Shown piece after piece: positions 21,135-62,740 of a stretch of 64,000 bases of DNA. The position numbers and the translations under genes were made by a program. Each line of letters starts with the position of its first letter. Within the stretch, counting starts at the first letter, position 1. The DNA lies in contig NC_045704.1 of assembly GCF_009834535.1 (NCBI RefSeq), forward strand, positions 18,724,001 to 18,788,000, in the 5' to 3' direction. The stretch comes from Camelus ferus. Its lineage: Eukaryota. The notes under the pieces were generated by a model, which did no database searches, was not told the origin of the DNA, and saw only the letters and a program-made list of their open reading frames with translations.

Positions 21135-21742
21135 TGTGCTTGGCTGAATAATAATCCCACAAAAATACCCAGACCATCCCTAGAAGCTATAAATATTTCA
21201 TGTTACATGCCAAAGGGACTGTACTGATGTAATTAAGGTTTATTAACTTTAAAATACGGAGATTATCCCGGGGAACCCGAGAGGGCCCAATCTAAACACA
21301 TAAGTTCTTAAAAGCAGAAAATATTCTCAGGCTGGAGGCAGAGGAGAATGTGGCAGAAGGAGAAGTGGGAGGGATTGCCAAGCATGAGGAGGACCTGATC
21401 CACCATCGCGGGCTCTGAGGTAGAGTGTCCATGTGCCAGGACCAGAAAGAGACCAAGAGTTAAGGATGGGCCTTCACAGCCAGCAAGGAAATGGGACATC
21501 AGTCTGCCACCACAAGGAACAGAATTCTGCCAACAACTTAGATGGGTTTTCAAGCAGATGGTTCCCAGAGCCTCCCAAACAACCAGCCAACTGCACTATG
21601 ACTCAGCCTTGTGAGACCCACAGCAGGGGAACCAGGCGAGCTCACCCGATCACTGCCCTGTGGAAACGTGAGAGAAGGAATTCAACTTGTGTTGAGATGC
21701 TCAGTTTGGGACAATTTGTTAGGGCAGCAAAAGTAGACCAAT
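21135..21742 (+). mobile_element. MLT1-type MaLR LTR just downstream of the IFNL2 copy (duplicated counterpart at ~41070-41660)
   Basis: TGTGCTTGGCTGAATAATAATCCC...GATGTAATTAAGG...AATTTGTTAGGGCAGCAA MaLR motifs. Confidence 0.7.
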
Positions 21743-21973
21743 CCTCACACACGCAGTCGCAGACCACAAAGAGCATCTTTTCCTCATTGTTTATTTGCAA
21801 AATTTTTACAAAAAGTAGAAAAATAAACATTTTATTGGGTCTGAGTTTGAGAATTCATACACATAAATACAAAAATAGTGACTTGCAGGCAATAAATTAA
21901 GAAAATGGTTCTGATGCATCAATACACAAATAACATGTAAGATGCTGGAACAGGTTGCAGGTAGATCTCAGGC

Positions 21974-23411
21974 TCAGACACACAGGTGTCCGCTGGCGAC
22001 ACATTTCAGGTCCCGGGTGAGGAGGCGGAAGAGGTTGAACATGACAGAGGCCTCGAGGCAGTCCTGGGACTCCTGTGGGAGGGGAAATGGCTCAGTGGTC
22101 CCCGTGCCTGGGCGCCCAGCTGCTCCCAGACATCAGTTTCCCCACCGCGGTCACTCACCTTCTTCGGGGCCTCCTGGAGCCGGTGCAGCCAGTGGTGGAG
22201 GCGGTCCCGGGGCCTGGGGCCTGCTGTGGGCTGAGCTGGGACCTGTGGGCAGAGGAGGGGGGTGTGAGGGGGTGAGGAAGGGCCTGGGACAGAGAGGGAC
22301 ATTCAGGTGGTCAGAGCCCAGACACGCTGCGGGTGGCCCGAGCACTCACACAAGCCTGGAGCTGGGAGTGGATGTGGCCCAGGGTGTGCAGGGGCTGGTC
22401 CAGGGTGCTGCCCAGGGATGAGTTAGCCATGGTCCCCAGGACGGCCAGGGTCAGGGCCACCTCAGCCTTCAAGGCCACGGGACGCTCCCACACCTGAGGC
22501 GGGGAGACAGGGGCAGGGGAGAGCTGCATGTGAGAGAGGACAAGGGAGGAGGGACAGGTGGGGAGGACACAGGCAGGGACAGTTGAAGGGGAAGGTCAGG
22601 GTCAGGGGAGAGGCACAGCCGATGTGGTCAGCGGAGGGGAAGGGGTCGGGGACAGGTGGGCAGGGCGGAGAGAGGAGGAGGCGGGAGGAGGAGGAGGGGA
22701 GGGGCCGCCTGCAGAGCCAGGTGATCTGGGCCAGGTGAGGGCAGGTGGGCCTGACTCTCCGGACTCACCTGCAGCTGCCTCAGGTCCCGGGTCCTGGGGA
22801 AGATGCGCGAGCTGCAGTTCCAGTCCTTCTGCAAGAGTGACTCTTCCTAGGGAGCAAGAGCAAGGTCAGCCCACAGCACGACCGAGGGGAGACCCCGGTG
22901 AGACTGGAGGGAGGCCGACCTCAGGAGGAGGGGAGGTGAAGGTCCAAAGGACGGCAGAGGCACGACCACCACAGGAGGACAGGGCTCAGCCCTCTGCGGG
23001 GAGGGCGAGGGGCCGGTGAAGGGAGAGCAGGTCCCCCTTGAGCAGAGGAAGCCCGGGCACCCACAGCGCGGGGGTGGAGGGGAGCCCACAGCAGGCGGGG
23101 CTGGGGGACACTCACAAAGGCGTCCTTGGCTCTCTTGAAGGCCTGCAGCTCTTGTGGGGACAGAGACTTGAACTGGGCCAGGTGGCAGCCCCTTGTGCCC
23201 GGGAGGGCCCTGAGGGGTGAGGGGACAGGAACTGCTCCTGTCCTGGTCAGCGCTGCGGTCATCAGCAACAGCCCCAGCAGGCAGCCCGAGGTCATGCCTG
23301 TGTTGTGGAAGGAGAGGAACGTGAGGGGACGTAGGTCACTGGGGACTGAGGGGAGGGCGTTTTGTGGGGCTCAGGTCCCGGGCAATGATGTCGGAGCTCA
23401 CCCAGCTTCAT
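21974..23411 (-). CDS. IFNL2: Interferon lambda 2/3-like, positional IFNL2 copy. Coding exons 23411-23402 (MKLG mini-exon), 23297-23116, 22846-22769, 22493-22350, 22242-22159, 22072-21974. 198 aa, or 194 aa from the ATG at 23295.
   Basis: Translated exons MTSGCLLGLLL...GCHLAQFKSLSPQELQAFKRAKDAF / EESLLQKDWNCSSRIFPRTRDLRQLQ / VWERPVALKAEVALTL...QLQAC / VPAQPTAGPRPRDRLHHWLHRLQEAPKK / ESQDCLEASVMFNLFRLLTRDLKCVASGHLCV* match the IFN-lambda family. All introns are GT-AG and the frame is open. The protein is identical to the + strand copy, so the IFNL2 versus IFNL3 name rests on synteny only. Confidence 0.95.
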
Positions 23412-23637
23412 TCCTGGTCTCAGGTCTCTGGTCTCTGGTCTCTGTCAGCAGGTGGGGGATCAAGTGTCCACTCCGAGGCTGTCGCCTGAGATCTCTCAGT
23501 CTTGTTTGACGTCTCTGACCCCAGTCTTCTCTTCTGGACCTCAGCCCGCTGCTCTGTCCGAGTGTCTGAACTTCCAGCTCCGTCTGAGGTCTAATTCCTG
23601 CCTGAGCTCCATGGTGCCGCTTTTAGCCTGTGCAGCT

Positions 23638-23773
23638 GGGCAATCCCAGCTGATGTAGGAAAAGTGAAAACACAGCTAGAGGGTGACACCGGCCACCAGG
23701 GAGGCCCAGGCAGGAAAGCCCAGAGCAGGGCGGGGCCTGGGAGCCAGGTGAGCAGCTGAGTGAAAGAGAAACT
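23638..23773 (-). promoter_or_regulatory. IFNL2-copy proximal promoter with the same ISRE, IRF and kB-like sites
   Basis: GGGCAATCCC at 23638-23647, GGAAAAGTGAAAAC at 23658-23671, GAAAGAGAAACT at 23762-23773. Confidence 0.75.
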
Positions 23774-26225
23774 GACATCCATTGGGGCTCACCTCCAAGA
23801 AAGTGCGTTCTGAAGACAAAATCCAGGCTGGGGCAGCTGCAGCCCCACATGGGGGTGCCTTGTGCAGTGGCCAGGCTAGATCTAGGACTGGAGTGGGGAG
23901 GGGACAGAGGGATTCCTTTCTGCAGGATGCCCCAGTGCAGGGAGTGGAGGGAAAGAGCACGCCTAGAAGGAGTTGCCGGGAAGAACCTGGACCTTCCAAG
24001 TGGGAGGCTGTTTAGGTGATGGGAGAAGATCTGGGGGTGCTGCTGGGGGTGGGGAGAGAGAGTCAGAAGGCAAAACACACCCATTAAGAGAGAAGACCAG
24101 CTCCTCCCCACCTTTTGCAACCTGGTACAGACAAAGATGGAATGGGGGAGGAGGGGAGCCCGCACTAACATCTCTAATTGTCCAGGCATAGAAGGACCCA
24201 GGAACAGGAGGCTCTGCTCTGGAATTGCGGGCCGACCAAGCCTTCAAGGGAACCAGCTTGGTTTGTGACAAACACCTTCATTCGTTCACCAAATATTTAT
24301 TCAGCCACCACTTTGGGTCAGACCCTGTTCAAGGTGCCAGGGCAAGAGCACTGAAAAAAGAAAAAGACATACCACAATCCTTCATGGAGCTTTTTACTAG
24401 AGAGGAGGAACACACAGTGGAGGTCGGGGAGTTAGGCTTGTGGTGTGTATTGTGTCAGAGAACGTCAGATAACAGAAAATGAAAAAATGAAACAGGGATG
24501 AGAGCAGAGTGCGGGAGGAAGTTTGCATTAAATGAGGTGTCTGAGAAATGACATTTAGGGAAAGACCTAAAGGAAGTGAGGGAGGGAGCTCTGTGAAGAT
24601 CCGAGGGGGAGCATTCTGCGAAAAGGGAACAGTCAGTGCAAAAGGAAAACAGACACCACCGCCACCCCCACTTTTGGTGTATGTCTCACCCTGTCACAGA
24701 GGCTTGGCCACAACGTGGTTAAATACCCACAATAGCACCAAGGACTTACTGTGCTTTGCCTACATGTCAAATACAGATGGAAGTTTAGAGACTCAGAGAG
24801 GTTAAGAGACTTGTTCAAGGTCACACAGCAAATAACTAGTGAGGGCAGGATTTTAACTGAGTTTTGCCTGGCATCAGGCAATAACCACTGCACCCTCCAG
24901 CCTGACTGTAGCGAGACCTCCTGGACCTGGAAGTGATGGATTTCTTGGACAGAAGTTGCTGAGTCCTTTTTGACTGTTACTCCCACCCTCTCTTTCCCTC
25001 ATTTTAATTCCAGGGAGAGGGTAGACTGAAATCCATGTTGGGGAATATCTTTGAGGTCTGATACGCAAAAATGTTTTAAAATCAATAGCAGGGATGTGCA
25101 AGTCACCCCCGGTGTTCTGGTCAGTTTCTGTCACTTGGAGGAGGCCTTACCTCAGGGGAGGAGACAATGAAACAAGAATGAATTTTGAAAATTTACTTAT
25201 TATCTCAAAATCCCTAGACATCATAATGTCTTTCTTAGAAAGAAAGCTCAGGGAGTGGTTAGGAACATGTGATCGAGAGCTGAAGACTTGGGGGCTCCTC
25301 ACTAGCTGTGTGATCTTGGGAAACAGGCTTTGCAGTTGGCCACAAAGATTACCCATCCTGCCCAGATCTTGATGAATGTAAAAAGTACAATTGTTTGCAC
25401 TTTTATGTGTGTGATTATTTCATGGAGACCATTTATTAAGATCATTCTGTGACTTCAGCTGGAAGCTTCACGAGCACTATTTCAATGTGTATTACTCATG
25501 GCAAGGGACGTGTAATAATATCATGGCATAGAAGACTAAACGGAGGCTGGGTACACAATTAAGTGTCAGGGGCAGAACTGAAACTCAGGTCACCTGATTT
25601 CCCTCTCAGCATTTTGTGCTGTACAGTCACCCTCAAAATGATCACAGAGAAACAACCAATGCAAATGCAATAATATTTAATAACTGGCGATAAATTAACC
25701 CAAGAAGACAAAAGAGCAAATATACATAGGAACTTCATAAATACAAAACACGCAAAAGTAACGGAATTCAAAAAACTACTTAACAGAAGGACTCTTGCCC
25801 AGTCCCTCATGGAATGAGGTCTCCCCAGCAGAGAGATCCAACAGTCCCATATTCATGGAATGTCAAAGCGGGCACTGAAGGTTCAAAGCAGGCGTTGGAA
25901 CCTGTCAAGGGACAGGGAGGTTTCTGCAACCACAGAAGTAGAAACTGGTCCATGGTACGTGGTGGTCAACGACCAAGGTCGACACGGAATCCAGTCTTTT
26001 CCTGCCAGCCCGGGGCCCTGGAAGATCTTAGGGCGACACTTCCCACGGAAATAGAGCGGCTTCCAGGGGGAACTGGTTCTGGCCCTGGGAAAAGGGCGCC
26101 TCTGGCACCAGCGCAGGCGGGTGGAGGCTGAGAGACCCGCCGGGTCCAATGGGGCAGCGGAGGAGGGCGGCGCCCGCAGCCAGGCGACCTCGCAGCTTCG
26201 GGTCCCAGGCGGGGCCGCGGCGGGA

Positions 26226-27567
26226 TCACAGACAAGGTCCCGAGTTTGCCACCAGCCGCAGGTCCCACGCGAGCAGGCGCAGGAAGTTGAAGATGACTCT
26301 GGCTTCATGACACCGAGGCGACTCCTGGAACCCGGGAAGGAGGCAGAGCCGGGCTGAGTCAGGCCCTCCCCCCCCCCCCTGCACTCCGTCACCGCTCCAA
26401 GGCGCGCGCCCGGCCCGTCTCAGCCTCACACCGTCCTCTCTGCGGTCTAACCGCTTGACCGCCCGCTCCACTCACAGCTCTGCGAGTTTTGTGACGCCTC
26501 CTGGGCGGCCGCGGGGACTTCCTCCAGGAGCCTGGCCGGACCAGCTGGAGCTGGAGGGGAACCGCACGTAACTTGAAGACGGCGAAGAACGGAGCCTCCC
26601 TCCCAGGTGGCTCCGCCCCTCACCCTCCCAGCCGCAGACCCAAGCCCGGATTAGGGGACACCGAGCGAGCTGGGAGGGGTGCGGGGCCAGGGCGGGACCG
26701 GCACTCACGCAGGCCGCCACGTCCCGCCCCGCGGCCGTCAGCAGCTCCAGGGTCGGGCCGACGCCGGGGAACAGCTCCGGGCTCGGCAGGCTGCTCAGCA
26801 CGGCCTGGGCGTCGGCGAGGCCGCGGGCCACCAGGCGGAGTCGGGCGCAGGACTGCGGGGACCGAGCGGCAGTTAGATGGGGCCGCGCTCGGGGCCCAAG
26901 TCCCCAAGCCCCTGCCGGCCGCGGGCCTCACCGACGGCGGCGGAGGGTTCCTCCTCGGGTGGAACGAGCAGTTGCGCGGCCTCCAGCTCAGCGTCTCTTC
27001 CTCCTGCGGGACAAGGGCCGGGATGATGCTGGGGATCCTCGCGGATTCCTGCACGTGGATCGGAACTGGCCCTCAAGGTTGTGCTCATCGTGTCCTGACC
27101 AGAGAGCTCTCTGAAGGCGCGAGGCAGGCCTGAAATGCACCTGCGCTCCAGGTGCGGATCCTGCGCCGGGACGTGGAGCCGAGTCCACCTGAAGGGGGCG
27201 CCCCTCTGTGACAGCCACTAAGGCCCGGTATGAGCTGACCACCAGGGCGGCTGGAAAGATGTGATCTGAATTCTGGACCCCGAGATCCAGGATGCGCCTG
27301 CTGGACGCTAGGACAAGAGGGCCCCTCGGGACAAAGGTTGTCGTCTCGGGACCCGGGGGCCCAGGGTCCGGGGGACAGAGGCGTGTGGGCATCACTCACA
27401 TAGCGGTTCCTCAGGGCCTTGGCTGCCTCCAGTGCCCGGGGATCCAGGGAGCGGTATTGGGAGAGGAGGCAGCGCCCGGGAGCCTCCACACCGGGGTCCA
27501 CCGCCACGCCCGCTGTCACCAAGACCCACAGCCCCATGGCCACCGCGGCTGCGCCACTCGGCCCCAT
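26226..27567 (-). CDS. IFNL4: Interferon lambda 4, second intact copy at the position of human IFNL4P1. Exons 27567-27400, 27003-26932, 26852-26709, 26550-26476, 26324-26226. 185 aa.
   Basis: Mirror image of the + strand copy. The ORF-track translations covering each exon are identical between the copies, splice sites are GT-AG, and I found no stop or frameshift. Confidence 0.93.
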
Positions 27568-29019
27568 CTCTGCTCCTGCAAGAGGCGACAGACGTCAGGG
27601 AGCCCAAGGAGAAAGCCCCCAAGTCCAAGCCCCTGCCTCTGGTCAGACTCGCAGAGGGATTGACGCTCAGAGGGCGGGCACTGAGCCCTCTCAGGGGGAG
27701 AGACAGGATGGGCCCGGACACCTACTCCTACCTTCAGCCTCTCTCCCCTCACTCCTCACCTACCATGTGTCTTCGGTGCCACTTGCTGCAGCAGGGCCTG
27801 CCTTCCAGTGTCCCCTGGGTGGTGTCCCGGGTGGTGTCCAGATTGTTGTCCACCTGGGACAGTGGTACCTGCACCCTCCATGGTGGCTCTTAAGTGAGGG
27901 GCTGAGAATGATGAGCAGCCGGGCTTCCCCATGCAGATTGTTTCCCAACGTCATTGCTGGCCATTGATCGGCCTGGAGAGTTGCAGGCATGGTGTGAGGA
28001 CTTTACCCGCTCGTGGGACAGTGCCAGCAATGACTCTACCCAAACTCTTCTGCCACCAGTTATTGTTTCTGTCCCTTTCTGTATCCTCTTGCTTTCTTTT
28101 CGTCACCGTCGGTTTCCTTATCTCTGTTGTATAATAATAACCAGCCCTTATACAGTGTTACTGTTACTAGGCCTTGTTCTAAGTAATTGATATGCACATG
28201 TCTCATTTAATGCTCAAAAATAACACTGCCAGAATTTTTCTACCTCCAATTCATGGGTGGGAAAACTGAGCCACAGTAAAGGGAAGGAACTTTTCCAAGA
28301 TACAAAGTAACTGGCAGAGGCAGGATTTGAATATATACTCAGTCCAGCCTCAAAGCTTGGTCTAACCCATTAACTCCCCCTATATATCTAATTCAATGCC
28401 TCCTTCTCTCTCTTCACTGTCTGTCTGTGTTTCATTCCATTTCTCTTTCATCCCTCTCTTTATGCCTCCCTTTTGTCTCTGTTGCTCAGTTCCTGGTTTT
28501 GTCTCTGTCCATGTCTAATTCCATCTTTCTTTTTCTAGCAAGCATTCAGGCCAGGGTCTTTCTGTCTGTCTCTGTCTCAAGCAGTCTCTTTGTTTTGAAT
28601 GAAAAATGAAATCTACCACTTATCTTGATAAAATTAGCAAAGCAGGATCATTGGTTAAAGCTTGAAAAATATAGACATAATATAAGGGAGGAAAAAACCC
28701 ACCTCTCTCCCCTCACCCCAGCTCTGGAACAATTTTTCCCATGTGTAGAAATGTTAAACATATTTATTTGTGCATATGTTTTCTGATTATCAAAGTAACA
28801 CATTCATTATAAAGATACAGTCAATACAAAAACATACAACTTGGAGAGTTAAAGTCTTGAATCCCACTTCCTGGACGTCATCTTTTTAGTCATCAGTTAC
28901 TATTCCTCTTTTTTTTTTTCTCTCTCTCTCTCTCTCTTTCGATGAACAATTTCTCTCAAATTGAAACCAGGCTGTATAAAGTTTAGCAGCTTGCTTTTCG
29001 TGTCTTACCATTATCTCTT

Positions 29020-29404
29020 TTTTTTTCTTTTTCTTTTTTAACATTTTTTATTGATTTATAATCATTTTACAATGTTGTGTCAAAGTCCAGTGTAGAGCAC
29101 AATTTTTCAGTTATACATGGACATATATATATTCATTGTCACATTTTTTTCTCTGTGAGCTACCATAAGATCTTGTGTATATTTCCCTGTGCTATACAGT
29201 ATAATCTTGTTTATCTATTCTACAATTTTGAAATCCCATCTATCCTTTCCCACCCTCCGCCCCCTTGGCAACCACAAGTTTGTATTCTATGTCTGTGAGT
29301 CTATTTCTGTTTTGTATTTATGCTTTGTTTTTTTTGTTTTTGTTTTTGTTTTTGTTTTTTAGATTCCACATATGAGCGATCTCATATGGTATTTTTCTTT
29401 CTCT
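29020..29404 (-). mobile_element. 5'-truncated young L1 with a perfect 15-bp TSD, in the palindrome spacer
   Basis: TTACCATTATCTCTT at 29005-29019 and 29405-29419 around a T-tail and L1 3' UTR sequence. Confidence 0.85.
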
Positions 29405-29999
29405 TTACCATTATCTCTTGTTTGCATTCCCCCACATCTTTAGTTATATTGTATCAGTGAAGGTCCCTTCAGGAAACAGATGGCCCAGTCAGTTTAGGGT
29501 AACTTGAGGTGGGTTTAATACCAGGAGTATTTACAAACGGATTGGATAGTGAAGGAAACAGATGAGGAGTAGTGCAAGGCCTTGGGACCCACATGCATGA
29601 GGGTCTATCATCTGTAGGCCTGAACAAAAGGGAGGGAAGGGAGTGGTTACTTGACCTGGAAGGGAGGGGTCAGGTACACAGGTGGAGGACACAGAGAGGT
29701 AGTGGTTGCCCTGAATGAAGGAAGCCTGGGGAGTAAATACTCTAACACTCTCCTTCTCTTCTCTCTGGCCCTACTCCTAGGCTCCCCATTGGCTGCACCC
29801 AACAGAAGCCAAAGGCCAGCTTCCTGGGGCCCAGAGGTGGGTGGAGAAGTGGGAGGGGCAAAAGGGAGACATCCCACCTATACCACTAGTAAGGCTTCCA
29901 TTCTAACAGGATTATTGAATAACCATCCCCTATTGGTGAACATGAATGTTCTTTTCAGTGTTTTGTTAAAGTCATGGTTCTCAAGGCTAGGGGTGAGAA

Positions 30000-32900
30000 A
30001 GGAAGTAATTTTTCATTCTTTTAACAGTATCTTTCATAGGGCTGAAGTTTTATATTTTTCCATCTCATTGATTTTCTTCTTTTATGGATGATGCTTTCAT
30101 GATTTTAATAAGTCATCACCTTGGTCCCTTACATTTTCTCCTATTTTACATTCTAGGAGTTTTATAGTTCTGCACTTCACGTTTAGGTCTATGATACGTT
30201 TTAAGTTAATTTTTGTGAAATGTGTAAGGTCTGTATCTAGGTTTTTTGTTTTTTCCCCTACGTGAAAGTTCTTTCAATACCATTTGTTGGAAAGACTATC
30301 TTCTCATCATTGAATTGCCTTTGTTCCTTTCTTAAAGACCAGTTGACTTTATTTGNNNNNNNNNNNNNNNNNNNNNNNNNNNNNNNNNNNNNNNNNNNNN
30401 NNNNNNNNNNNNNNNNNNNNNNNNNNNNNNNNNNNNNNNNNNNNNNNNNNNNNNNNNNNNNNNNNNNNNNNNNNNNNNNNNNNNNNNNNNNNNNNNNNNN
30501 NNNNNGTGAAAGCTATTCTGGGCTTTTTGGATCGCTGTATAAACTTTTACTTTGTCAATATTTACAAATTAACTTGCTGGGATTTTGATTGGATTGCAAG
30601 GAATCTACAGATTAAGTTGGGAAGAACTGACATCTTGACAATATTGAGTCTTCCTATCCAAGTTCATAGAGTATTTTCATTTTTAGATGTTCTTTTATTT
30701 CTTTCATCAGTTTTCCTCATATAGATCGTGTTCAGCATTTGTTAGATTTGTACTTAAGCATTTCATTTTTGGGTGGTGCTGATGTAAATGGTCCTTTTTT
30801 TAAATTTCAAACTCAAATTGTTTATTGCTATTATACAAGAAAGAAATGGACCTTTGTATATTAACTTTTATCTGGCAACATTGCTATAATCACTTATGAT
30901 TCAGAAATATGTTTTTAAATGCATAATATTAAATACACAGGACTATGAAGGAAACTGACTATATTGAAACACAGTTACCAAAACATAAAAGCAATTTTGT
31001 GATAAGTAATACATATGCCTTTTTATTAATGTATTAAGTAACAAGATATTGCAATGAGTTTAATAACTACTATACTTTTGTGGTAGTAATGAGAGTAAAT
31101 GATATTTCAAGATGTGTGCCACATCGCTAACATGTTATGAAATATTTATGACTCCTTTTAGTGACAAAGTCACAGATTCTGCTAATACTATTGTGGTTTG
31201 TTACTTACATTCATCATGGAAAGAAATGCTAAATTTCAGTTAAGGTTAGTGAAGATGGAAATGCAGCTTTTTCTCATGTAAGTTCACCCTCCCCTGAATC
31301 CTATCATGGGGTGGTCCACGAACCCCAGGTTAAGCTAGATTTGCAGCAGTTAAACAGAATGAAGTAGATCTATATGCACTGACATGGAAAAACTTTCAAG
31401 GCATATTACAGAGTGAAAAAAGTAAATTGCTGAACAATACACATGGTGTGACACTCCTTGTGTTTATAAGTACTCACACATGCAAAAGCAATTCAGTGGA
31501 GAAAAATCGCCTATTCAACAAATAGTGCTGGAGTAATTGGACACCCATAGGCTAAAAAAATGAACCTTGACCTAAACCTCACATTAAAATAAAAATTAAC
31601 TCAATATGTGACATGGACTTAAACATAAATTATAAAGCTATAAAACTTTGAGAAAGAATTATGAAAAACCTCTTCAGGCAATAGGAGGTGCTGGAAGCAG
31701 ATTGAGGGAGGAAGGAAAGCAAAGTTGGAGTATTTATTCTCCCTTCTGGTTCCTTCCTGGCAGGGATAAGATCTGACAGTGGCTGGGTTCCTCTGTCTCC
31801 AGCCACACATCTCACCTAGGATGGTAACAGCTCTCCGTGTTGCCAGCCTCCAGGTGCATCACCGCCCTTTGTTGATTTCATTAATCCTACCCACTTTTTC
31901 CCAGGTTAAACATTTGAATAGGTCCCCTGCTTCCTGTACATATCGTTTTTTCCGGAGTTTGTTTAATTGAAATTTTTACTGAGATCATTGTAAGGTACCT
32001 CTGGGAAGCACATGGGAACCGAGGAGATGATCATGCATGCTGTTATAAGAAATAATACAAAGAGATCCTGTACACTCTACCCAGCTTCCCCTAGTGGTCA
32101 CATCTTACAAAATTACAATATTACAACCAGGAAATTGAAGGATACAATCCACCCGTCTTATTCAGATAGCCCCTAGATGTTCATCTAAATTGTTGCATGT
32201 ATCAATTGTTCATTCCTGTTTCATACCAGACTTTGCTTAATCGTTCACCCTTTGAAGGACCTCTGGGCTGTTTCTACTTTTCGGCTATTACTAATAATGC
32301 TGCAATGAACATTTGTGTTCAGATGACTGTGTGGACATCAGTTTTCATTTCTCTGGAATAAATACCCAGGAGTTCAATTGCTGGGTTGATGTGCAGTTGC
32401 ATGTTTAGTTTTACAAGAAGCTGCCAAACTGTGTTTTGGAGGGGCTGTACAATTTTTACATTCCTGCAGGTCACTTATGAGGGATCCAGTTTCTAGATTG
32501 TTTTTTAAGTTTTGCTCACAAATAAGTTCCCCAGAGCTTTTTTTGTTGTTGCTATTGTCTCCTAAATTCTTGAAGCAGTTTTCTTTTAATAGAGTAAACA
32601 TCTCAAACAGTGGATCTCAAGAAACTTTTCTGCGAGGATGATATTTGTCTTTGTCCAGTTGGGCTGCTTATAACAAAATACCACAGACTGGGGAGCTTAA
32701 AAACAACAGAAATTTATTTCTTACAGTTCTGGAGCCACGATCAAGGCACCAGCATGGTCAGGTAAGAGCTCTCTTCCAGGTGACAAAATTCTCATTTGGT
32801 CCTCACATGGTGGAAGGGGGCGAGGGAGCTCTGTGAGGTCTCTTTTTAGGAGGACTAATCCCATTTTTGAGGGCTCCATCTCATGACTTAATCACCTCCT

Positions 32901-33000
32901 AAAGACCTCCACCTCCTAATACCATCACCTTTGTTGGTTAGGATTTCAACATAACAATTTTTGAGGGGACATTCAAACCACAGCAGCCTGTATTAAATGT
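30000..33000. mobile_element. Spacer repeat mosaic: antisense L1 fragments, a Charlie-type hAT fragment (~30900-31335) and an MLT1 LTR (~32640-32990)
   Basis: Recognisable L1 antisense text, an hAT-like end (CCACGAACCCCAGGTTAAG) and an MLT1 start (GGGCTGCTTATAACAAAATACCACAGACTGGG). Confidence 0.6.
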
Positions 33001-35247
33001 AATTTGTGATTGCACCTAACTCAAGCAAATAACCTGCATTGCAGTGCCCAGAGTTGAATCACTGATTATTGAGAACTTGCATCTGGTACTTTCCTGTGTC
33101 CAATCCCACTGCATTCCACTCTTCCTGCCGTTATCAATTTTACTTCCAGTTCTTCAGTCTTTGAAGACACGTGGTTTCACTTCAGCCCCATCATGTGTAT
33201 CAGGACACTTTTGGTAGCAAAAATAAAAAACAAACAAACCAAAAGTCCAACTCAAGCTGGCTTGAACAATGGAGAACTTATGGACTTATAAAACTGAGAA
33301 GTCCAAAATTAAGGTGAGGCTGCAGGTAAAGTTTGATCCTGTAAGACATAGTGAAACTCCCAATTTTGTTTTATCTTGTTTTTTATCTTTCAGGTCTCCC
33401 TTCCACTGGTGGGAAGACTGCTTACCCTTATAATTCCAAGATGAGTGCTAGTGATTCCCCTGGCTTCACACTTCATCCTTCTCCAGTAGGAAGAAGATAG
33501 CGTCTTTCTCCCAGAAAGTCCAGGATTGAGATTCATTCTGATTAGATTGGCTTAAGTCAAATCCCCAACCCCAAACCCAATCACCGTGGCCAGAGAGATG
33601 AACTAAAGTAAATGGCTGCAGCCAGGTCACATACCCCAATCCCAGGGATGCGGGGGGGTGGTCAAGTCACCTTCCTAAAACCATTTGGATCTGCAGTCGA
33701 AGTGGGGGATGCTGGGATGGGTGAGGGGAGAGGTAACAGAAGCTTGGAAAGTTTGCTGCATGGACACTTTGGAGGAAACTCTTCTAATGTTTCAGCAGAA
33801 TTTCTCACGTGCTTTTTCAGAGTGCTTATGTTTCAACAACTTTGATGTTTCTTAAAACTTCTATGCCTTGGAATAGGAAAATATACACTGAAAAACAAAA
33901 TAAGTTTCTCATATTAATGCTGAGGAAGACATATACCTGAAAAACAGCCATTACTTTCCTGCAATTATCAATATTTATTAATGAACTTAATTATAATTAA
34001 TTAAAGGTGGTCTCATATAGGAAGCTTGGCTGAACGTGCCCTGAACATACCTAAGCTATTCTGCACATGGATAGATCTGTCTATATAGATGAGAAATGGC
34101 AACACTAACCCAGACAGCCTGGGATCATATCTACAAGCTGTGTGATCTTGGGAAGACTCATAGCCTCTCTGTGCCTCAGTTTCCTCATCTATAAAATGTC
34201 AGCCAGTGAGAGGACCTACCTCACAGTGTTGCTGGGAAGAATAAAGCAGTAAATATGTGAGAAGAGCTTAAAGCAGTGCCAAGCACACAAGAAGTGCTCA
34301 GTATGTATTAGCTATAATTATTATTGACAATGGTTGAGAAAAACATGTCTGCAATTCCAACTTTCAACAGCAAACTAACAATAGTTTTATAATTGGTAAA
34401 GGCATAAATATCACTTAATAACAGACTAAGGAGGCCAGAGAGAGCTTGTCTAAGGTCTTGATGAGGAAAAAACCTGAGAAAACAGAGGAGAGCAATATTC
34501 ATGCAAAGAACAAGATATAAAAAGACAGGGAGAGAAAGACAGGATATAATGACAAGAAAAGAGTGATTGAAGAGAGAGCACAAGAAACCCTAGTATGAAC
34601 TCCTGCAGGGCAGGCACTTGTATGGGGACCTCTGCCATGTTTGCAGCTTCCAACAGGAGGAAATAGTCTGTTTTCAGTTCACTCTTAGAGTGTGAAAGAA
34701 AGAGAAACACACAGAAAAGATAAACAGAATCCTCAAAATGAACAGTAGTAATTGACCCAGGAGAGAGGGTCCGAGCAAAGTCATTGTTGACACTGTCCCA
34801 CAAGCAGGTAAAGTCATCACACACTGGCCAGGATCCCACCCGGCCAGCAGCCAGCAATGGATGACATTGGGAAACAACCGGCATGGGGAAGCCCGGCTGC
34901 TCATCATTCTCAGCCCCTCACTTAAGAGCCACCATGGAGGGTGCAGGTACCACTGTCCCAGGTGGACAACAATCTGGACACCACCCGGGACACCACCCAG
35001 GGGACACTGGAAGGCAGGCCCTGCTGCAGCAAGTGGCACCGAAGACACATGGTAGGTGAGGAGTGAGGGGAGAGAGGCTGAAGGTAGGAGTAGGTGTCCG
35101 GGCCCATCCTGTCTCTCCCCCTGAGAGGGCTCAGTGCCCGCCCTCTGAGCGTCAATCCCTCTGCGAGTCTGACCAGAGGCAGGGGCTTGGACTTGGGGGC
35201 TTTCTCCTTGGGCTCCCTGACGTCTGTCGCCTCTTGCAGGAGCAGAG

Positions 35248-36586
35248 ATGGGGCCGAGTGGCGCAGCCGCGGTGGCCATGGGGCTGTGGGTCTTGGTGAC
35301 AGCGGGCGTGGCGGTGGACCCCGGTGTGGAGGCTCCCGGGCGCTGCCTCCTCTCCCAATACCGCTCCCTGGATCCCCGGGCACTGGAGGCAGCCAAGGCC
35401 CTGAGGAACCGCTATGTGAGTGATGCCCACACGCCTCTGTCCCCCGGACCCTGGGCCCCCGGATCCCGAGACGACAACCTTTGTCCCGAGGGGCCCTCTT
35501 GTCCTAGCGTCCAGCAGGCGCATCCTGGATCTCGGGGTCCAGAATTCAGATCACATCTTTCCAGCCGCCCTGGTGGTCAGCTCATACCGGGCCTTAGTGG
35601 CTGTCACAGAGGGGCGCCCCCTTCAGGTGGACTCGGCTCCACGTCCCGGCGCAGGATCCGCACCTGGAGCGCAGGTGCATTTCAGGCCTGCCTCGCGCCT
35701 TCAGAGAGCTCTCTGGTCAGGACACGATGAGCACAACCTTGAGGGCCAGTTCCGATCCACGTGCAGGAATCCGCGAGGATCCCCAGCATCATCCCGGCCC
35801 TTGTCCCGCAGGAGGAAGAGACGCTGAGCTGGAGGCCGCGCAACTGCTCGTTCCACCCGAGGAGGAACCCTCCGCCGCCGTCGGTGAGGCCCGCGGCCGG
35901 CAGGGGCTTGGGGACTTGGGCCCCGAGCGCGGCCCCATCTAACTGCCGCTCGGTCCCCGCAGTCCTGCGCCCGACTCCGCCTGGTGGCCCGCGGCCTCGC
36001 CGACGCCCAGGCCGTGCTGAGCAGCCTGCCGAGCCCGGAGCTGTTCCCCGGCGTCGGCCCGACCCTGGAGCTGCTGACGGCCGCGGGGCGGGACGTGGCG
36101 GCCTGCGTGAGTGCCGGTCCCGCCCTGGCCCCGCACCCCTCCCAGCTCGCTCGGTGTCCCCTAATCCGGGCTTGGGTCTGCGGCTGGGAGGGTGAGGGGC
36201 GGAGCCACCTGGGAGGGAGGCTCCGTTCTTCGCCGTCTTCAAGTTACGTGCGGTTCCCCTCCAGCTCCAGCTGGTCCGGCCAGGCTCCTGGAGGAAGTCC
36301 CCGCGGCCGCCCAGGAGGCGTCACAAAACTCGCAGAGCTGTGAGTGGAGCGGGCGGTCAAGCGGTTAGACCGCAGAGAGGACGGTGTGAGGCTGAGACGG
36401 GCCGGGCGCGCGCCTTGGAGCGGTGACGGAGTGCGGGGGGGGGGGGGCCCTGACTCAGCCCGGCTCTGCCTCCTTCCCGGGTTCCAGGAGTCGCCTCGGT
36501 GTCATGAAGCCAGAGTCATCTTCAACTTCCTGCGCCTGCTCGCGTGGGACCTGCGGCTGGTGGCAAACTCGGGACCTTGTCTGTGA
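35248..36586 (+). CDS. IFNL4: Interferon lambda 4. Exons 35248-35415, 35812-35883, 35963-36106, 36265-36339, 36488-36586. 185 aa.
   Basis: MGPSGAAAVAMGLWVLV...RCLLSQYRSLDPRALEAAKALRNRY / EEETLSWRPRNCSFHPRRNPPPPS / SCARLRLVARGLADAQAVL...AGRDVAAC / LQLVRPGSWRKSPRPPRRRHKTRRA / ESPRCHEARVIFNFLRLLAWDLRLVANSGPCL* matches human IFNL4 exon by exon (exons 2-5: 24, 48, 25 and 32 aa). All introns are phase-0 GT-AG. AATAAA at 37375-37380. Confidence 0.96.
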
Positions 36587-39038
36587 TCCCGCCGCGGCCC
36601 CGCCTGGGACCCGAAGCTGCGAGGTCGCCTGGCTGCGGGCGCCGCCCTCCTCCGCTGCCCCATTGGACCCGGCGGGTCTCTCAGCCTCCACCCGCCTGCG
36701 CTGGTGCCAGAGGCGCCCTTTTCCCAGGGCCAGAACCAGTTCCCCCTGGAAGCCGCTCTATTTCCGTGGGAAGTGTCGCCCTAAGATCTTCCAGGGCCCC
36801 GGGCTGGCAGGAAAAGACTGGATTCCGTGTCGACCTTGGTCGTTGACCACCACGTACCATGGACCAGTTTCTACTTCTGTGGTTACAGAAACCTCCCTGT
36901 CCCTTGACAGGTTCCAACGCCTGCTTTGAACCTTCAGTGCCCGCTTTGACATTCCATGAATATGGGACTGTTGGATCTCTCTGCTGGGGAGACCTCATTC
37001 CATGAGGGACTGGGCAAGAGTCCTTCTGTTAAGTAGTTTTTTGAATTCCGTTACTTTTGCGTGTTTTGTATTTATGAAGTTCCTATGTATATTTGCTCTT
37101 TTGTCTTCTTGGGTTAATTTATCGCCAGTTATTAAATATTATTGCATTTGCATTGGTTGTTTCTCTGTGATCATTTTGAGGGTGACTGTACAGCACAAAA
37201 TGCTGAGAGGGAAATCAGGTGACCTGAGTTTCAGTTCTGCCCCTGACACTTAATTGTGTACCCAGCCTCCGTTTAGTCTTCTATGCCATGATATTATTAC
37301 ACGTCCCTTGCCATGAGTAATACACATTGAAATAGTGCTCGTGAAGCTTCCAGCTGAAGTCACAGAATGATCTTAATAAATGGTCTCCATGAAATAATCA
37401 CACACATAAAAGTGCAAACAATTGTACTTTTTACATTCATCGAGATCTGGGCAGGATGGGTAATCTTTGTGGCCAACTGCAAAGCCTGTTTCCCAAGATC
37501 ACACAGCTAGTGAGGAGCCCCCAAGTCTTCAGCTCTCGATCACATGTTCCTAACCACTCCCTGAGCTTTCTTTCTAAGAAAGACATTATGATGTCTAGGG
37601 ATTTTGAGATAATAAGTTAATTTTCAAAATTCATTCTTGTTTCATTGTCTCCTCCCCTGAGGTAAGGCCTCCTCCAAGTGACAGAAACTGACCAGAACAC
37701 CGGGGGTGACTTGCACATCCCTGCTATTGATTTTAAAACATTTTTGCGTATCAGACCTCAAAGATATTCCCCAACATGGATTTCAGTCTACCCTCTCCCT
37801 GGAATTAAAATGAGGGAAAGAGAGGGTGGGAGTAACAGTCAAAAAGGACTCAGCAACTTCTGTCCAAGAAATCCATCACTTCCAGGTCCAGGAGGTCTCG
37901 CTACAGTCAGGCTGGAGGGTGCAGTGGTTATTGCCTGATGCCAGGCAAAACTCAGTTAAAATCCTGCCCTCACTAGTTATTTGCTGTGTGACCTTGAACA
38001 AGTCTCTTAACCTCTCTGAGTCTCTAAACTTCCATCTGTATTTGACATGTAGGCAAAGCACAGTAAGTCCTTGGTGCTATTGTGGGTATTTAACCACGTT
38101 GTGGCCAAGCCTCTGTGACAGGGTGAGACATACACCAAAAGTGGGGGTGGCGGTGGTGTCTGTTTTCCTTTTGCACTGACTGTTCCCTTTTCGCAGAATG
38201 CTCCCCCTCGGATCTTCACAGAGCTCCCTCCCTCACTTCCTTTAGGTCTTTCCCTAAATGTCATTTCTCAGACACCTCATTTAATGCAAACTTCCTCCCG
38301 CACTCTGCTCTCATCCCTGTTTCATTTTTTCATTTTCTGTTATCTGACGTTCTCTGACACAATACACACCACAAGCCTAACTCCCCGACCTCCACTGTGT
38401 GTTCCTCCTCTCTAGTAAAAAGCTCCATGAAGGATTGTGGTATGTCTTTTTCTTTCTTCAGTGCTCTTGCCCTGGCACCTTGAACAGGGTCTGACCCAAA
38501 GTGGTGGCTGAATAAATATTTGGTGAACGAATGAAGGTGTTTGTCACAAACCAAGCTGGTTCCCTTGAAGGCTTGGTCGGCCCGCAATTCCAGAGCAGAG
38601 CCTCCTGTTCCTGGGTCCTTCTATGCCTGGACAATTAGAGATGTTAGTGCGGGCTCCCCTCCTCCCCCATTCCATCTTTGTCTGTACCAGGTTGCAAAAG
38701 GTGGGGAGGAGCTGGTCTTCTCTCTTAATGGGTGTGTTTTGCCTTCTGACTCTCTCTCCCCACCCCCAGCAGCACCCCCAGATCTTCTCCCATCACCTAA
38801 ACAGCCTCCCACTTGGAAGGTCCAGGTTCTTCCCGGCAACTCCTTCTAGGCGTGCTCTTTCCCTCCACTCCCTGCACTGGGGCATCCTGCAGAAAGGAAT
38901 CCCTCTGTCCCCTCCCCACTCCAGTCCTAGATCTAGCCTGGCCACTGCACAAGGCACCCCCATGTGGGGCTGCAGCTGCCCCAGCCTGGATTTTGTCTTC
39001 AGAACGCACTTTCTTGGAGGTGAGCCCCAATGGATGTC

Positions 39039-39174
39039 AGTTTCTCTTTCACTCAGCTGCTCACCTGGCTCCCAGGCCCCGCCCTGCTCTGGGCTTTCCT
39101 GCCTGGGCCTCCCTGGTGGCCGGTGTCACCCTCTAGCTGTGTTTTCACTTTTCCTACATCAGCTGGGATTGCCC
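39039..39174 (+). promoter_or_regulatory. IFNL3 proximal promoter: ISRE, IRF element and NF-kB-like site
   Basis: AGTTTCTCTTTC at 39039-39050 fits AGTTTCNNTTTC. GTTTTCACTTTTCC at 39141-39154 is the reverse complement of GGAAAAGTGAAAAC (PRDI-like). GGGATTGCCC at 39165-39174 is kB-like. Confidence 0.75.
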
Positions 39175-39400
39175 AGCTGCACAGGCTAAAAGTGGCACCA
39201 TGGAGCTCAGGCAGGAATTAGACCTCAGACGGAGCTGGAAGTTCAGACACTCGGACAGAGCAGCGGGCTGAGGTCCAGAAGAGAAGACTGGGGTCAGAGA
39301 CGTCAAACAAGACTGAGAGATCTCAGGCGACAGCCTCGGAGTGGACACTTGATCCCCCACCTGCTGACAGAGACCAGAGACCAGAGACCTGAGACCAGGA

Positions 39401-40838
39401 ATGAAGCTGGGTGAGCTCCGACATCATTGCCCGGGACCTGAGCCCCACAAAACGCCCTCCCCTCAGTCCCCAGTGACCTACGTCCCCTCACGTTCCTCTC
39501 CTTCCACAACACAGGCATGACCTCGGGCTGCCTGCTGGGGCTGTTGCTGATGACCGCAGCGCTGACCAGGACAGGAGCAGTTCCTGTCCCCTCACCCCTC
39601 AGGGCCCTCCCGGGCACAAGGGGCTGCCACCTGGCCCAGTTCAAGTCTCTGTCCCCACAAGAGCTGCAGGCCTTCAAGAGAGCCAAGGACGCCTTTGTGA
39701 GTGTCCCCCAGCCCCGCCTGCTGTGGGCTCCCCTCCACCCCCGCGCTGTGGGTGCCCGGGCTTCCTCTGCTCAAGGGGGACCTGCTCTCCCTTCACCGGC
39801 CCCTCGCCCTCCCCGCAGAGGGCTGAGCCCTGTCCTCCTGTGGTGGTCGTGCCTCTGCCGTCCTTTGGACCTTCACCTCCCCTCCTCCTGAGGTCGGCCT
39901 CCCTCCAGTCTCACCGGGGTCTCCCCTCGGTCGTGCTGTGGGCTGACCTTGCTCTTGCTCCCTAGGAAGAGTCACTCTTGCAGAAGGACTGGAACTGCAG
40001 CTCGCGCATCTTCCCCAGGACCCGGGACCTGAGGCAGCTGCAGGTGAGTCCGGAGAGTCAGGCCCACCTGCCCTCACCTGGCCCAGATCACCTGACTCTG
40101 CAGGCGGCCCCTCCCCTCCTCCTCCTCCCGCCTCCTCCTCTCTCCGCCCTGCCCACCTGTCCCCGACCCCTTCCCCTCCGCTGACCACATCGGCTGTGCC
40201 TCTCCCCTGACCCTGACCTTCCCCTTCAACTGTCCCTGCCTGTGTCCTCCCCACCTGTCCCTCCTCCCTTGTCCTCTCTCACATGCAGCTCTCCCCTGCC
40301 CCTGTCTCCCCGCCTCAGGTGTGGGAGCGTCCCGTGGCCTTGAAGGCTGAGGTGGCCCTGACCCTGGCCGTCCTGGGGACCATGGCTAACTCATCCCTGG
40401 GCAGCACCCTGGACCAGCCCCTGCACACCCTGGGCCACATCCACTCCCAGCTCCAGGCTTGTGTGAGTGCTCGGGCCACCCGCAGCGTGTCTGGGCTCTG
40501 ACCACCTGAATGTCCCTCTCTGTCCCAGGCCCTTCCTCACCCCCTCACACCCCCCTCCTCTGCCCACAGGTCCCAGCTCAGCCCACAGCAGGCCCCAGGC
40601 CCCGGGACCGCCTCCACCACTGGCTGCACCGGCTCCAGGAGGCCCCGAAGAAGGTGAGTGACCGCGGTGGGGAAACTGATGTCTGGGAGCAGCTGGGCGC
40701 CCAGGCACGGGGACCACTGAGCCATTTCCCCTCCCACAGGAGTCCCAGGACTGCCTCGAGGCCTCTGTCATGTTCAACCTCTTCCGCCTCCTCACCCGGG
40801 ACCTGAAATGTGTCGCCAGCGGACACCTGTGTGTCTGA
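39401..40838 (+). CDS. IFNL3: Interferon lambda 3. Coding exons 39401-39410 (MKLG mini-exon), 39515-39696, 39966-40043, 40319-40462, 40570-40653, 40740-40838. 198 aa, or 194 aa from the ATG at 39517.
   Basis: Canonical IFN-lambda exon translations with signal peptide and six mature cysteines. GT-AG introns, TGA at 40836-40838, ATTTA pentamers at 40915 and 40944, AATAAA at 40976-40981. Lies next to IFNL4 and on the SYCN side of the cluster, as human IFNL3 does. Confidence 0.96.
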
Positions 40839-41769
40839 GCCTGAGATCTACCTGCAACCTGTTCCAGCATCTTACATGTTATTTGTGTATTGATGCATCA
40901 GAACCATTTTCTTAATTTATTGCCTGCAAGTCACTATTTTTGTATTTATGTGTATGAATTCTCAAACTCAGACCCAATAAAATGTTTATTTTTCTACTTT
41001 TTGTAAAAATTTTGCAAATAAACAATGAGGAAAAGATGCTCTTTGTGGTCTGCGACTGCGTGTGTGAGGATTGGTCTACTTTTGCTGCCCTAACAAATTG
41101 TCCCAAACTGAGCATCTCAACACAAGTTGAATTCCTTCTCTCACGTTTCCACAGGGCAGTGATCGGGTGAGCTCACCTGGTTCCCCTGCTGTGGGTCTCA
41201 CAAGGCTGAGTCATACTGTGGCCAACTGGGTTGTTTTGGAGGCTTTGTAAACCCATCTAAGTTGTTGGCCGAATTCTGCTCCTTGCGGTTGTCAGGCGCC
41301 TTGTCCCATTTCCTTGCTGGCTGTGAAGACCTGTCCTTAGCTCTTGGCTACCTCTTTCTGGTCCCAGTAAGTGGACCTTCTACCTCAGAGCCCGCGATGG
41401 TGGGTCAAGTCCTCTTCATGCCTGGTATCCCTCCCACGTCTTCTTCTGTCACATTTCTGCCCTCAGCTTGAGAAAGTTCTGTACTTTTAAGAACTCATGT
41501 GTTCAGATTGGGCCTTCTCAAGCAACCCAGGTTAATGCCTCTATTTTAAAGTCAATAAACCTTAATTACATCAGCACTGTCTCTTTGGTGTGTACAAGAT
41601 ATTTATAACTTCTAGGGATGGTGTGGGTATCTTTGTTGGGTTATTATTCAGCCAAGCACAGTATGTGTGTGATGGTGTCACTAGAGTGCATTCTGTTACA
41701 AGTAAAGTAATAGTAAGTAAAAATGCCTTAATAATGAGAACATTTATTATTGTACAGAAGTCTTGAGGA

Positions 41770-62702: not shown

Positions 62703-62705
<3 letters not shown>

Positions 62706-62740
<35 letters not shown>

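What the first reader, a model, noticed from the sequence alone, without database searches (positions are those of the whole stretch)
21974..40838. Two intact, protein-identical IFNL4 genes in an IFNL2/3-IFNL4 | IFNL4-IFNL3 palindrome
Seen: both arms carry a complete five-exon IFNL4 with GT-AG introns, no stop or frameshift and the same 185-aa product, plus identical IFNL2/3 proteins. Established: the human locus has the same inverted layout, but the second copy (IFNL4P1) is a pseudogene, human IFNL4 is often inactivated by rs368234815-TT, and mouse lacks IFNL4. Inference: this lineage keeps double IFNL4 dosage. That matters because camelids are MERS-CoV reservoir hosts in which nasal type III IFN responses are studied. 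Short-read mapping and qPCR cannot separate the copies and would collapse them.
Basis: partly seen in the sequence, partly recalled or inferred. Interest (0 to 1): 0.85.

Follow-up and report, generated by a model that had tools for sequence, protein, structure and literature searches.

The report
Twin intact interferon-lambda-4 genes in camels
This camel DNA holds two mirror-image blocks, each with an intact copy of the antiviral genes IFNL3 and IFNL4, likely kept identical by copying between the blocks; many other mammals appear to have two intact IFNL4 as well, so the broken second copy of humans and great apes is likely the exception rather than the camel.

Summary
Observation confirmed. 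Two inverted arms (21030-28035, 34779-41757) flank a unique 6.7-kb spacer. Each carries a five-exon IFNL4 (185 aa) and IFNL3 (194 aa) with base-identical coding sequence. The 6.3-kb core differs at 11 sites (0.17%), but its outer and inner shoulders are 14-18% diverged: an old duplication whose transcribed part is likely homogenised by arm-to-arm gene conversion, not a fresh duplication or a haplotig. Alpaca and dromedary annotations also list two loci. The read-depth test could not be run, and expression of both copies is untested. The lineage-specific reading fails: two or more full-length, non-identical IFNL4 records occur in 18 of 30 non-hominid species groups tested (whales, deer, bats, rhino, elephant, pika, shrew), and the copies group by species, while the hominid second copies form their own clade. 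The left-arm copy is likely the living counterpart of the hominid IFNL4-like pseudogene (the 'IFN-lambda5 slot'), which argues against a 2019 review's suggestion of a hominid-specific duplication. Real, useful for camelid immunology and IFNL evolution, but a variant of a known locus that public annotation already partly shows.

The parts
21030..28035 (-). Left arm (arm A) of the inverted duplication; weak homology continues inward to about 28101
34779..41757 (+). Right arm (arm B), SYCN-proximal; weak homology starts at about 34714; ends at an interspersed repeat at 41760
21594..27934 (-). Homogenised core of arm A (pairs with 34881-41218): 11 substitutions in 6338 columns, one 3-base indel; runs from the IFNL4 promoter to about 200 bp past the last IFNL3 AATAAA
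34881..41218 (+). Homogenised core of arm B
21030..21593 (.). Outer diverged shoulder of arm A (vs 41219-41757): 77 substitutions in 533 columns, K2P 0.16, 10 gap blocks
41219..41757 (.). Outer diverged shoulder of arm B
27935..28035 (.). Inner diverged shoulder of arm A (vs 34779-34880): 17 substitutions in 97 columns, K2P 0.20
34779..34880 (.). Inner diverged shoulder of arm B
28036..34778 (.). Unique AT-rich spacer (GC 0.38) between the two head-to-head IFNL4 promoters
21974..23295 (-). IFNL3 copy A, CDS exons 23295-23116, 22846-22769, 22493-22350, 22242-22159, 22072-21974; optional upstream ATG mini-exon at 23411
   Evidence: identical to annotated Camelus IFN-lambda3 P0242, mini-exon form P0243
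26226..27567 (-). IFNL4 copy A, CDS exons 27567-27400, 27003-26932, 26852-26709, 26550-26476, 26324-26226; likely the positional counterpart of the hominid IFNL4-like pseudogene
   Evidence: identical to P0094; position inferred from SYCN, IFNL1 remnant and recalled human gene order
35248..36586 (+). IFNL4 copy B, CDS exons 35248-35415, 35812-35883, 35963-36106, 36265-36339, 36488-36586
39517..40838 (+). IFNL3 copy B, CDS exons 39517-39696, 39966-40043, 40319-40462, 40570-40653, 40740-40838; optional mini-exon at 39401
25927..25927 (.). Only arm-distinguishing base in the predicted IFNL4 mRNA (3' UTR, about 300 nt past the stop; partner 36885); ATTAAA at +544
27921..27930 (-). NF-kB-like motif in the IFNL4 promoter, 4 bases inside the inner edge of the homogenised core (partner 34885-34894); a consensus match only
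51000..51402 (+). SYCN first coding exon, orienting landmark on the arm-B side
   Evidence: Pfam Syncollin 1.5e-54

Best explanation
The window holds an inverted duplication with an intact IFNL4 and an intact IFNL3 in each arm, and the arms are likely an old duplication whose transcribed core is kept near-identical by repeated arm-to-arm gene conversion, so that camelids, like probably many other placental mammals, would carry two working IFNL4 genes. Shown: the inverted arms, identical coding sequences, a 0.17% diverged core with sharp edges inside 14-18% diverged shoulders, a unique spacer. Inferred: the two arms pair intrachromosomally and one overwrites the other during repair; a disabling change in one copy is either overwritten or removed by selection; in great apes the converted tract stopped covering IFNL4, and the second copy then took a stop codon at the tyrosine (human Y50) that both camel copies keep (Y56). 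Untested: that both copies are transcribed and give secreted protein, and hence any dosage effect.
For: Anatomy: core K2P 0.0017 against shoulders 0.16-0.20 on both sides, a hundredfold step. Two loci in relatives: alpaca has one 185-aa IFNL4 under two RefSeq accessions (XP_072823202.1, XP_072824888.1), and dromedary has XP_031313354.1 plus a second group XP_031315068-70; the alpaca protein differs from the camel one at 6 of 185 sites, so copies match within species and differ between species. Breadth: of 30 non-hominid species groups with two or more records that I compared, 18 have two records that both cover the mature protein and differ by substitutions, which splice isoforms cannot (14 of 23, 4 of 7); 3 more have two records with identical mature parts. 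Tree of 60 rows: copies group by species or close kin, whereas human, chimpanzee and orangutan second copies form their own clade, 100/99. Protein intactness: six cysteines, N67-C-S site, E at the position of human K154, best solved match human IFN-lambda4 9bpu_C at 2.4e-71 against 8.5e-8 for IFN-lambda3. Human and mouse share the inverted IFNL2/IFNL3 layout at over 97% and conversion was raised as one reading (PMC2654155, passages).
Against: No read-depth or long-read evidence was obtained. Two alpaca loci are inferred from accession numbers and names, not from DNA. For non-camelid species I saw protein records only, not orientation or position, and the groups were picked because they had two records, so 18 of 30 is no prevalence; 8 of the 30 had an incomplete member and 1 a record flagged low quality. 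Pig and warthog show one RefSeq IFNL4 each (PMC13511426 passages list one porcine IFNL4), and Myotis, elephant, pika and shrew show three or four, so layouts vary and repeated independent duplication is possible. The absence of coding differences is not significant on its own (chance 0.14 for 10 sites with 18% coding). C. ferus records may derive from the window's own genome and are not counted as independent.
Confidence: 0.78

Rival explanations
1. Assembly artefact: one real arm was duplicated in the assembly (two haplotypes laid side by side), or polishing overwrote a disabled copy with the intact one.
For: Core divergence of 0.17% is of the size expected between haplotypes (recalled order of magnitude); one dromedary GenBank annotation lists up to four IFNL3/IFNL4 pairs, so the locus is hard to assemble. 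No depth test was possible.
Against: Haplotype duplication cannot give inverted arms with 14-18% diverged shoulders at both ends and a unique spacer; 11 differences survive inside the core; alpaca and dromedary annotations list two loci; the own genome holds no third or unplaced copy.
Confidence: 0.07
2. Repeated independent duplication (birth and death): the camelid arms and the pairs in other mammals arose separately and recently, with no long-term conversion.
For: Species-wise clustering in the tree is also what recent duplications give; copy number varies from one to four among species; PMC2654155 preferred independent duplications (passages); PMC6767866 section 9 suggests a hominid-specific duplication.
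Against: A recent duplication would not leave old diverged shoulders in register on both sides of the core; it needs the same inverted IFNL3/IFNL4 layout to arise in camel, alpaca and hominids separately, and a separate recent event in camel and in alpaca.
Confidence: 0.1
3. Both frames are intact but only one copy (or neither) is usefully expressed; conversion keeps a passenger copy intact, so there is no double dosage.
For: Conversion preserves frames without selection on each copy; identity stops 367 bp upstream of the IFNL4 ATG, so distal control regions differ, and an IRF-like motif at 34698 lies only on the arm-B side; human and gorilla IFNL4 give mostly intron-retaining, poorly translated RNA (PMC5110018 passages), and RefSeq models of one camelid copy are intron-retaining (P0097, P0003).
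Against: Proximal promoter, splice sites, CpG island (o/e 0.74) and ATTAAA signal are the same in both arms; E154-type residue is the high-activity form in primates (PMC6181419 passages). This rival is compatible with the best explanation's evolutionary part.
Confidence: 0.3

Closest known systems
Human IFNL locus (IFNL3-IFNL4 | IFNL4-like/IFNL4P1-IFNL2, then IFNL1)
   Same: Inverted duplicated blocks with an IFNL2/3 gene downstream of an IFNL4-type gene in each; IFNL1-type locus beyond one arm (PMC2654155 passages, PMC6767866 section 9). SYCN beside the IFNL3 arm is recalled.
   Different: Human second copy is 92.2% identical and stops at codon 50; here both copies are base-identical in the CDS and keep the tyrosine. 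Camel has E where human has K154. The syntenic multi-exon IFNL1 is broken in camel and an intronless copy lies on another chromosome.
Mouse Ifnl2/Ifnl3 inverted pair
   Same: About 6 kb of inverted, over 97% identical DNA with about 10 kb between (PMC2654155 passages).
   Different: Mouse and rat lack IFNL4 (PMC4199494, PMC4722605 passages).
Paired 'interferon lambda-4-like' gene models in public annotation of whales, deer, bats, rhino, elephants, pika
   Same: Two or more full-length IFNL4 records per assembly, near-identical within species.
   Different: Orientation and position not seen here; some species have one, three or four; many pairs differ by 1-10 residues whereas the camel pair is identical.
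Palindrome arm-to-arm gene conversion as on primate Y and X chromosomes (recalled, not read here)
   Same: Inverted arms at about 99.8% or more, unique spacer, duplicated intact genes.
   Different: Arms are 7 kb rather than tens to hundreds of kb, autosomal, and hold immune genes.

Membership tests
IFN-lambda4 (IFNL4) | IL28A domain, far closer to human IFN-lambda4 than to IFN-lambda1-3 (about 30% to the latter) | tested here: met
   PF15177 1.5e-32; 9bpu_C 2.4e-71 vs IFN-lambda3 8.5e-8; 73% to human IFNL4, 28-30% to the window's IFNL3
IFN-lambda4 (IFNL4) | Five coding exons, GT-AG introns, open frame | tested here: met
   both arms
IFN-lambda4 (IFNL4) | Conserved cysteines, single N-glycosylation site, ancestral E154 | tested here: met
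   C33, 68, 82, 128, 158, 184; N67-C-S; E160 aligns to human K154
IFN-lambda4 (IFNL4) | Lies upstream of, and on the same strand as, an IFNL2/3 gene | tested here: met
IFN-lambda4 (IFNL4) | Induced by viral RNA, secreted, signals through IFNLR1/IL10R2 | not testable with these tools
IFNL2/3-type IFN-lambda | Five-exon gene whose product matches annotated IFN-lambda3 | tested here: met
   identical to P0242, Camelus IFN-lambda3
Palindrome under concerted evolution | Inverted arms with a unique spacer | tested here: met
Palindrome under concerted evolution | Near-identical core with abrupt edges inside old, diverged homology | tested here: met
   K2P 0.0017 vs 0.16-0.20
Palindrome under concerted evolution | Paralogues closer within a species than orthologues between species | tested here: met
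   protein level only: camel pair 0 differences, alpaca one sequence under two accessions, camel-alpaca 6 of 185; tree
Palindrome under concerted evolution | Conversion tracts or variants shared between arms in a population | not testable with these tools
   needs arm-resolved haplotypes
Assembly false duplication | Copies alike throughout, including flanks | tested here: not met
   diverged shoulders and different flanks
Assembly false duplication | Half the expected read depth over each copy | not tested

The most novel reading that the evidence does not exclude
The IFNL3-IFNL4 palindrome is an ancestral placental arrangement kept up by gene conversion for most of mammalian history; two working IFNL4 genes are the mammalian norm, the human 'IFN-lambda5 slot' is a live gene in camels and many other mammals, and the hominid line lost IFN-lambda4 activity in three steps (second copy stopped, E154K, TT frameshift) rather than gaining a dead duplicate.
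Probability: 0.55. Interest if true: 0.62.

Novelty: new variant of a known kind. Interest (0 to 1): 0.42.

Why it matters
For IFNL evolution it turns the reading of the human locus round: PMC6767866 (section 9) suggests that the IFNL4-like region arose by a hominid duplication and was silenced; an intact twin in the same slot in camel, and paired copies in many orders, make loss from a two-copy ancestor more likely, adding an early step to the known decline of IFN-lambda4 in humans. Comparative studies that treat IFNL4 as single-copy (no mention of copies, duplicates or paralogues in term searches of PMC4722605 and PMC4199494) may mix paralogues. For camelid immunology it is practical: published alpaca IFN-lambda3 primers fit both arms, the 'IFN-lambda1' primer fits the intronless gene on another chromosome, IFN-lambda4 was not on that panel, and one copy is hidden in annotation as an 'uncharacterized protein'.

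Tried and rejected
Read depth and junction test on public runs: 24 runs were listed, 14 holding at least half of the core's words, 10 of them not marked as a possible source, in 4 studies and 2 coded organisms; none could be laid, so presence is shown but not copy number, and the five RNA runs with 0.32-0.40 of the words are no evidence of expression (could be DNA). First exon-4 acceptor for IFNL3 gave a frameshifted product and was rejected for the acceptor 41 bases on. Six-frame ORF listing showed no further gene in the arms or spacer that I could recognise. Search for arm homology beyond the shoulders found only interspersed repeats. Selection against coding differences between arms: not significant. 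The search term IFNL4P1 mostly hit isoform names. Ten paper searches returned no paper on two IFNL4 in camelids or on concerted evolution of IFNL4 in mammals; the library lacks most subscription journals, one likely relevant paper (Krause and Pestka 2015, recalled as the source of the 'interferon 1IC1/1IC2' names seen) was not held, and I recall, unread here, a conference abstract on partial gene conversion in placental IFN-lambda genes. Earlier scan findings: none returned. Rows dropped before the tree: 8 of 68 (six incomplete models, two from a different assembly than their partner).
Full report
OBSERVATION. Self-comparison of the window gives one large match, an inverted repeat 21030-28035 / 41757-34779 at 97.8% (arms also). 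A base-level alignment splits it into a core, 21594-27934 / 34881-41218, with 11 substitutions in 6338 columns and one 3-base slip in a poly-C run (K2P 0.0017), and shoulders on both sides: outer 21030-21593 / 41219-41757 with 77 substitutions in 533 columns (K2P 0.16), inner 27935-28035 / 34779-34880 with 17 in 97 (K2P 0.20). The 6.7-kb spacer is unique apart from repeats. Each arm holds a five-exon IFNL4 (168/72/144/75/99 nt, GT-AG, 185 aa) and, downstream on the same strand, a five-exon IFNL3 (180/78/144/84/99 nt, 194 aa); both coding sequences are base-identical between arms. The two IFNL4 genes face away from each other across the spacer. The own genome has exactly two matches to the IFNL4 gene.

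IDENTITY. The IFNL4 product equals P0094, annotated in Camelus species, and the IFNL3 product equals P0242, so this is a Camelus genome. The IFNL4 protein matches solved human IFN-lambda4 at 2.4e-71 and IFN-lambda3 at 8.5e-8, keeps six cysteines and an N-C-S site, and has glutamate where human has K154, the form reported as more active in primates (PMC6181419, passages). SYCN lies right of arm B. About 5 kb left of the window lies a multi-exon IFNL1-type locus with no start codon at the expected place, a TGA in exon 1 and an apparent frameshift in exon 4; an intronless 191-aa IFNL1-type gene lies on contig C19. With the recalled human order SYCN-IFNL3-IFNL4-IFNL4P1-IFNL2-IFNL1, arm A's IFNL4 sits in the slot of the hominid pseudogene. 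PMC6767866 (section 9 read whole) describes that slot: 92.2% identical to IFNL4, a stop at codon Y50 in human, chimpanzee, gorilla, bonobo and orangutan, and possibly a hominid duplication. Both camel copies keep the tyrosine (Y56).

IS IT REAL. The anatomy argues against an artefact: a duplicated haplotype would not give inverted arms with old diverged shoulders at both ends and a unique spacer. Alpaca has one 185-aa IFNL4 under two RefSeq accessions from separate number groups, and dromedary has two groups as well. I do not count C. ferus records, which may come from this genome. Overwriting of a disabled copy by polishing cannot be excluded but would have to recur in several assemblies.

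MECHANISM. A hundredfold step in divergence at both edges of the core means the duplication is far older than the identity of the core. With a recalled neutral rate near 2e-9 per site per year the shoulders give some tens of millions of years and the core under one million; these are rough. The alpaca protein differs from the camel one at 6 of 185 sites, yet each species' copies agree. The likely mechanism is repeated arm-to-arm gene conversion. The core covers just the two transcription units: it begins 4 bases outside an NF-kB-like motif 354-363 bp upstream of the IFNL4 ATG and ends about 200 bp past the last IFNL3 AATAAA. No coding difference between arms is seen, but that is not significant alone (chance 0.14). 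Whether both copies are expressed is unknown; distal upstream DNA differs, and human IFNL4 is held down by intron retention and a weak poly(A) signal (PMC5110018, passages).

NOT A CAMELID SPECIALITY. A search with exon 3 returned 93 proteins among 365 candidates; cluster look-ups of 30 proteins (three large clusters listed in part or not at all beyond 15 members) showed many species with two or more IFNL4-like records. Of 30 non-hominid species groups compared, 18 have two records that cover the mature protein and differ by substitutions: red deer, white-tailed deer, pilot whale, common dolphin, Rice's whale, blue whale, two Myotis, two Rhinolophus, Pteropus medius, black rhino, Asian elephant, pika (14 of 23), Hipposideros larvatus, Rousettus, Suncus, Rhynchocyon (4 of 7). 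Three have identical mature parts (oryx, raccoon dog, Loxodonta), eight have an incomplete member and one a low-quality flag. Narwhal, humpback, Sousa (distinct locus tags), arctic fox and H. armiger show one protein under two accessions. The groups were chosen for having two records, so this is breadth and not prevalence; pig and warthog show one, some species three or four; orientation was not seen. In a tree of 60 rows (8 of 68 dropped) copies group by species or near kin, while the human, chimpanzee and orangutan second copies form a clade of their own at 100/99: conversion likely stopped covering IFNL4 before the great apes split. Independent duplications remain a rival for the distant orders.

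COMPARISON WITH PRINT. The inverted IFNL2/IFNL3 layout in human and mouse, with gene conversion as one reading, is in PMC2654155 (passages). IFNL4 is described as conserved in mammals and absent in mouse and rat (PMC4199494, PMC4722605, passages), with no hit for copies, duplicates or paralogues in those texts. PMC13511426 lists one porcine IFNL4 (passages). PMC6640115 (passages) dates the IFNL4 versus IL-28/29 split to amniotes; PMC4126180 gave one table note on IFNL4P1. The alpaca study PMC8195365 (passages and supplement rows; two scanned supplement files unread) measured IFN-lambda1 and lambda3 only; its lambda3 forward primer fits both arms with one mismatch, and its lambda1 forward primer fits the intronless gene exactly. 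Ten searches (listings seen) found no paper on twin IFNL4 in camelids or concerted evolution of IFNL4, but subscription journals are mostly missing, one likely source was not held, and I recall related unpublished or unread work, so specialists may know it.

VERDICT. Real, well formed, and best read as a gene-conversion palindrome that keeps two intact IFNL4 genes. The surprise is not that camels doubled IFNL4 but that great apes likely lost the twin. New variant of a known kind; interest 0.42.

Noticed in passing
L001:3391-4910 (minus), about 5 kb left of the window: Multi-exon IFNL1-type locus in the syntenic place looks broken: no ATG at the expected start, TGA in exon 1, apparent frameshift in exon 4.
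   Followed up: partly
L002:1437-2012 (G000 contig C19): Intronless IFNL1-type gene with an open 191-aa frame; the published alpaca IFN-lambda1 forward primer matches it exactly, so it is likely the gene measured as camelid IFN-lambda1.
   Followed up: partly
proteins P0002, P0096, P0242, P0243: One dromedary GenBank annotation lists alternating IFNL3/IFNL4 accessions (KAB1274816-19, 23, 24, and KAB1273510-11), up to four pairs: copy-number variation, isoforms or assembly duplication.
   Followed up: no
proteins P0097, P0003; window 36885: RefSeq models one camelid IFNL4 copy as an intron-retaining 'uncharacterized protein' (463 aa, 324 aa); both read the arm-B base at the 3' UTR marker.
   Followed up: partly
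13 of 13 cetacean IFNL4 rows: All have arginine in place of the cysteines at camel positions 33 and 82, so cetacean IFN-lambda4 may have a changed disulfide pattern.
   Followed up: no
window 23411/39401 and about 27767/35048: Both genes have an optional upstream ATG mini-exon in frame with the main ATG (MKLG for IFNL3, seen in P0243; MVGAE for IFNL4, seen in P0096).
   Followed up: partly
window 26364-26380 / 36435-36448: Three of the twelve core differences cluster in a G/C homopolymer in IFNL4 intron 4 and may be sequencing error or slippage.
   Followed up: no
window 62697-63505 (minus): Ferritin light-chain-like processed sequence in two frames (Pfam Ferritin 1.6e-13), probably a pseudogene.
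   Followed up: partly
proteins P0083, P0039: A third elephant copy and one Phyllostomus copy are about 17% diverged from their partners, as if they had left the converted block.
   Followed up: no
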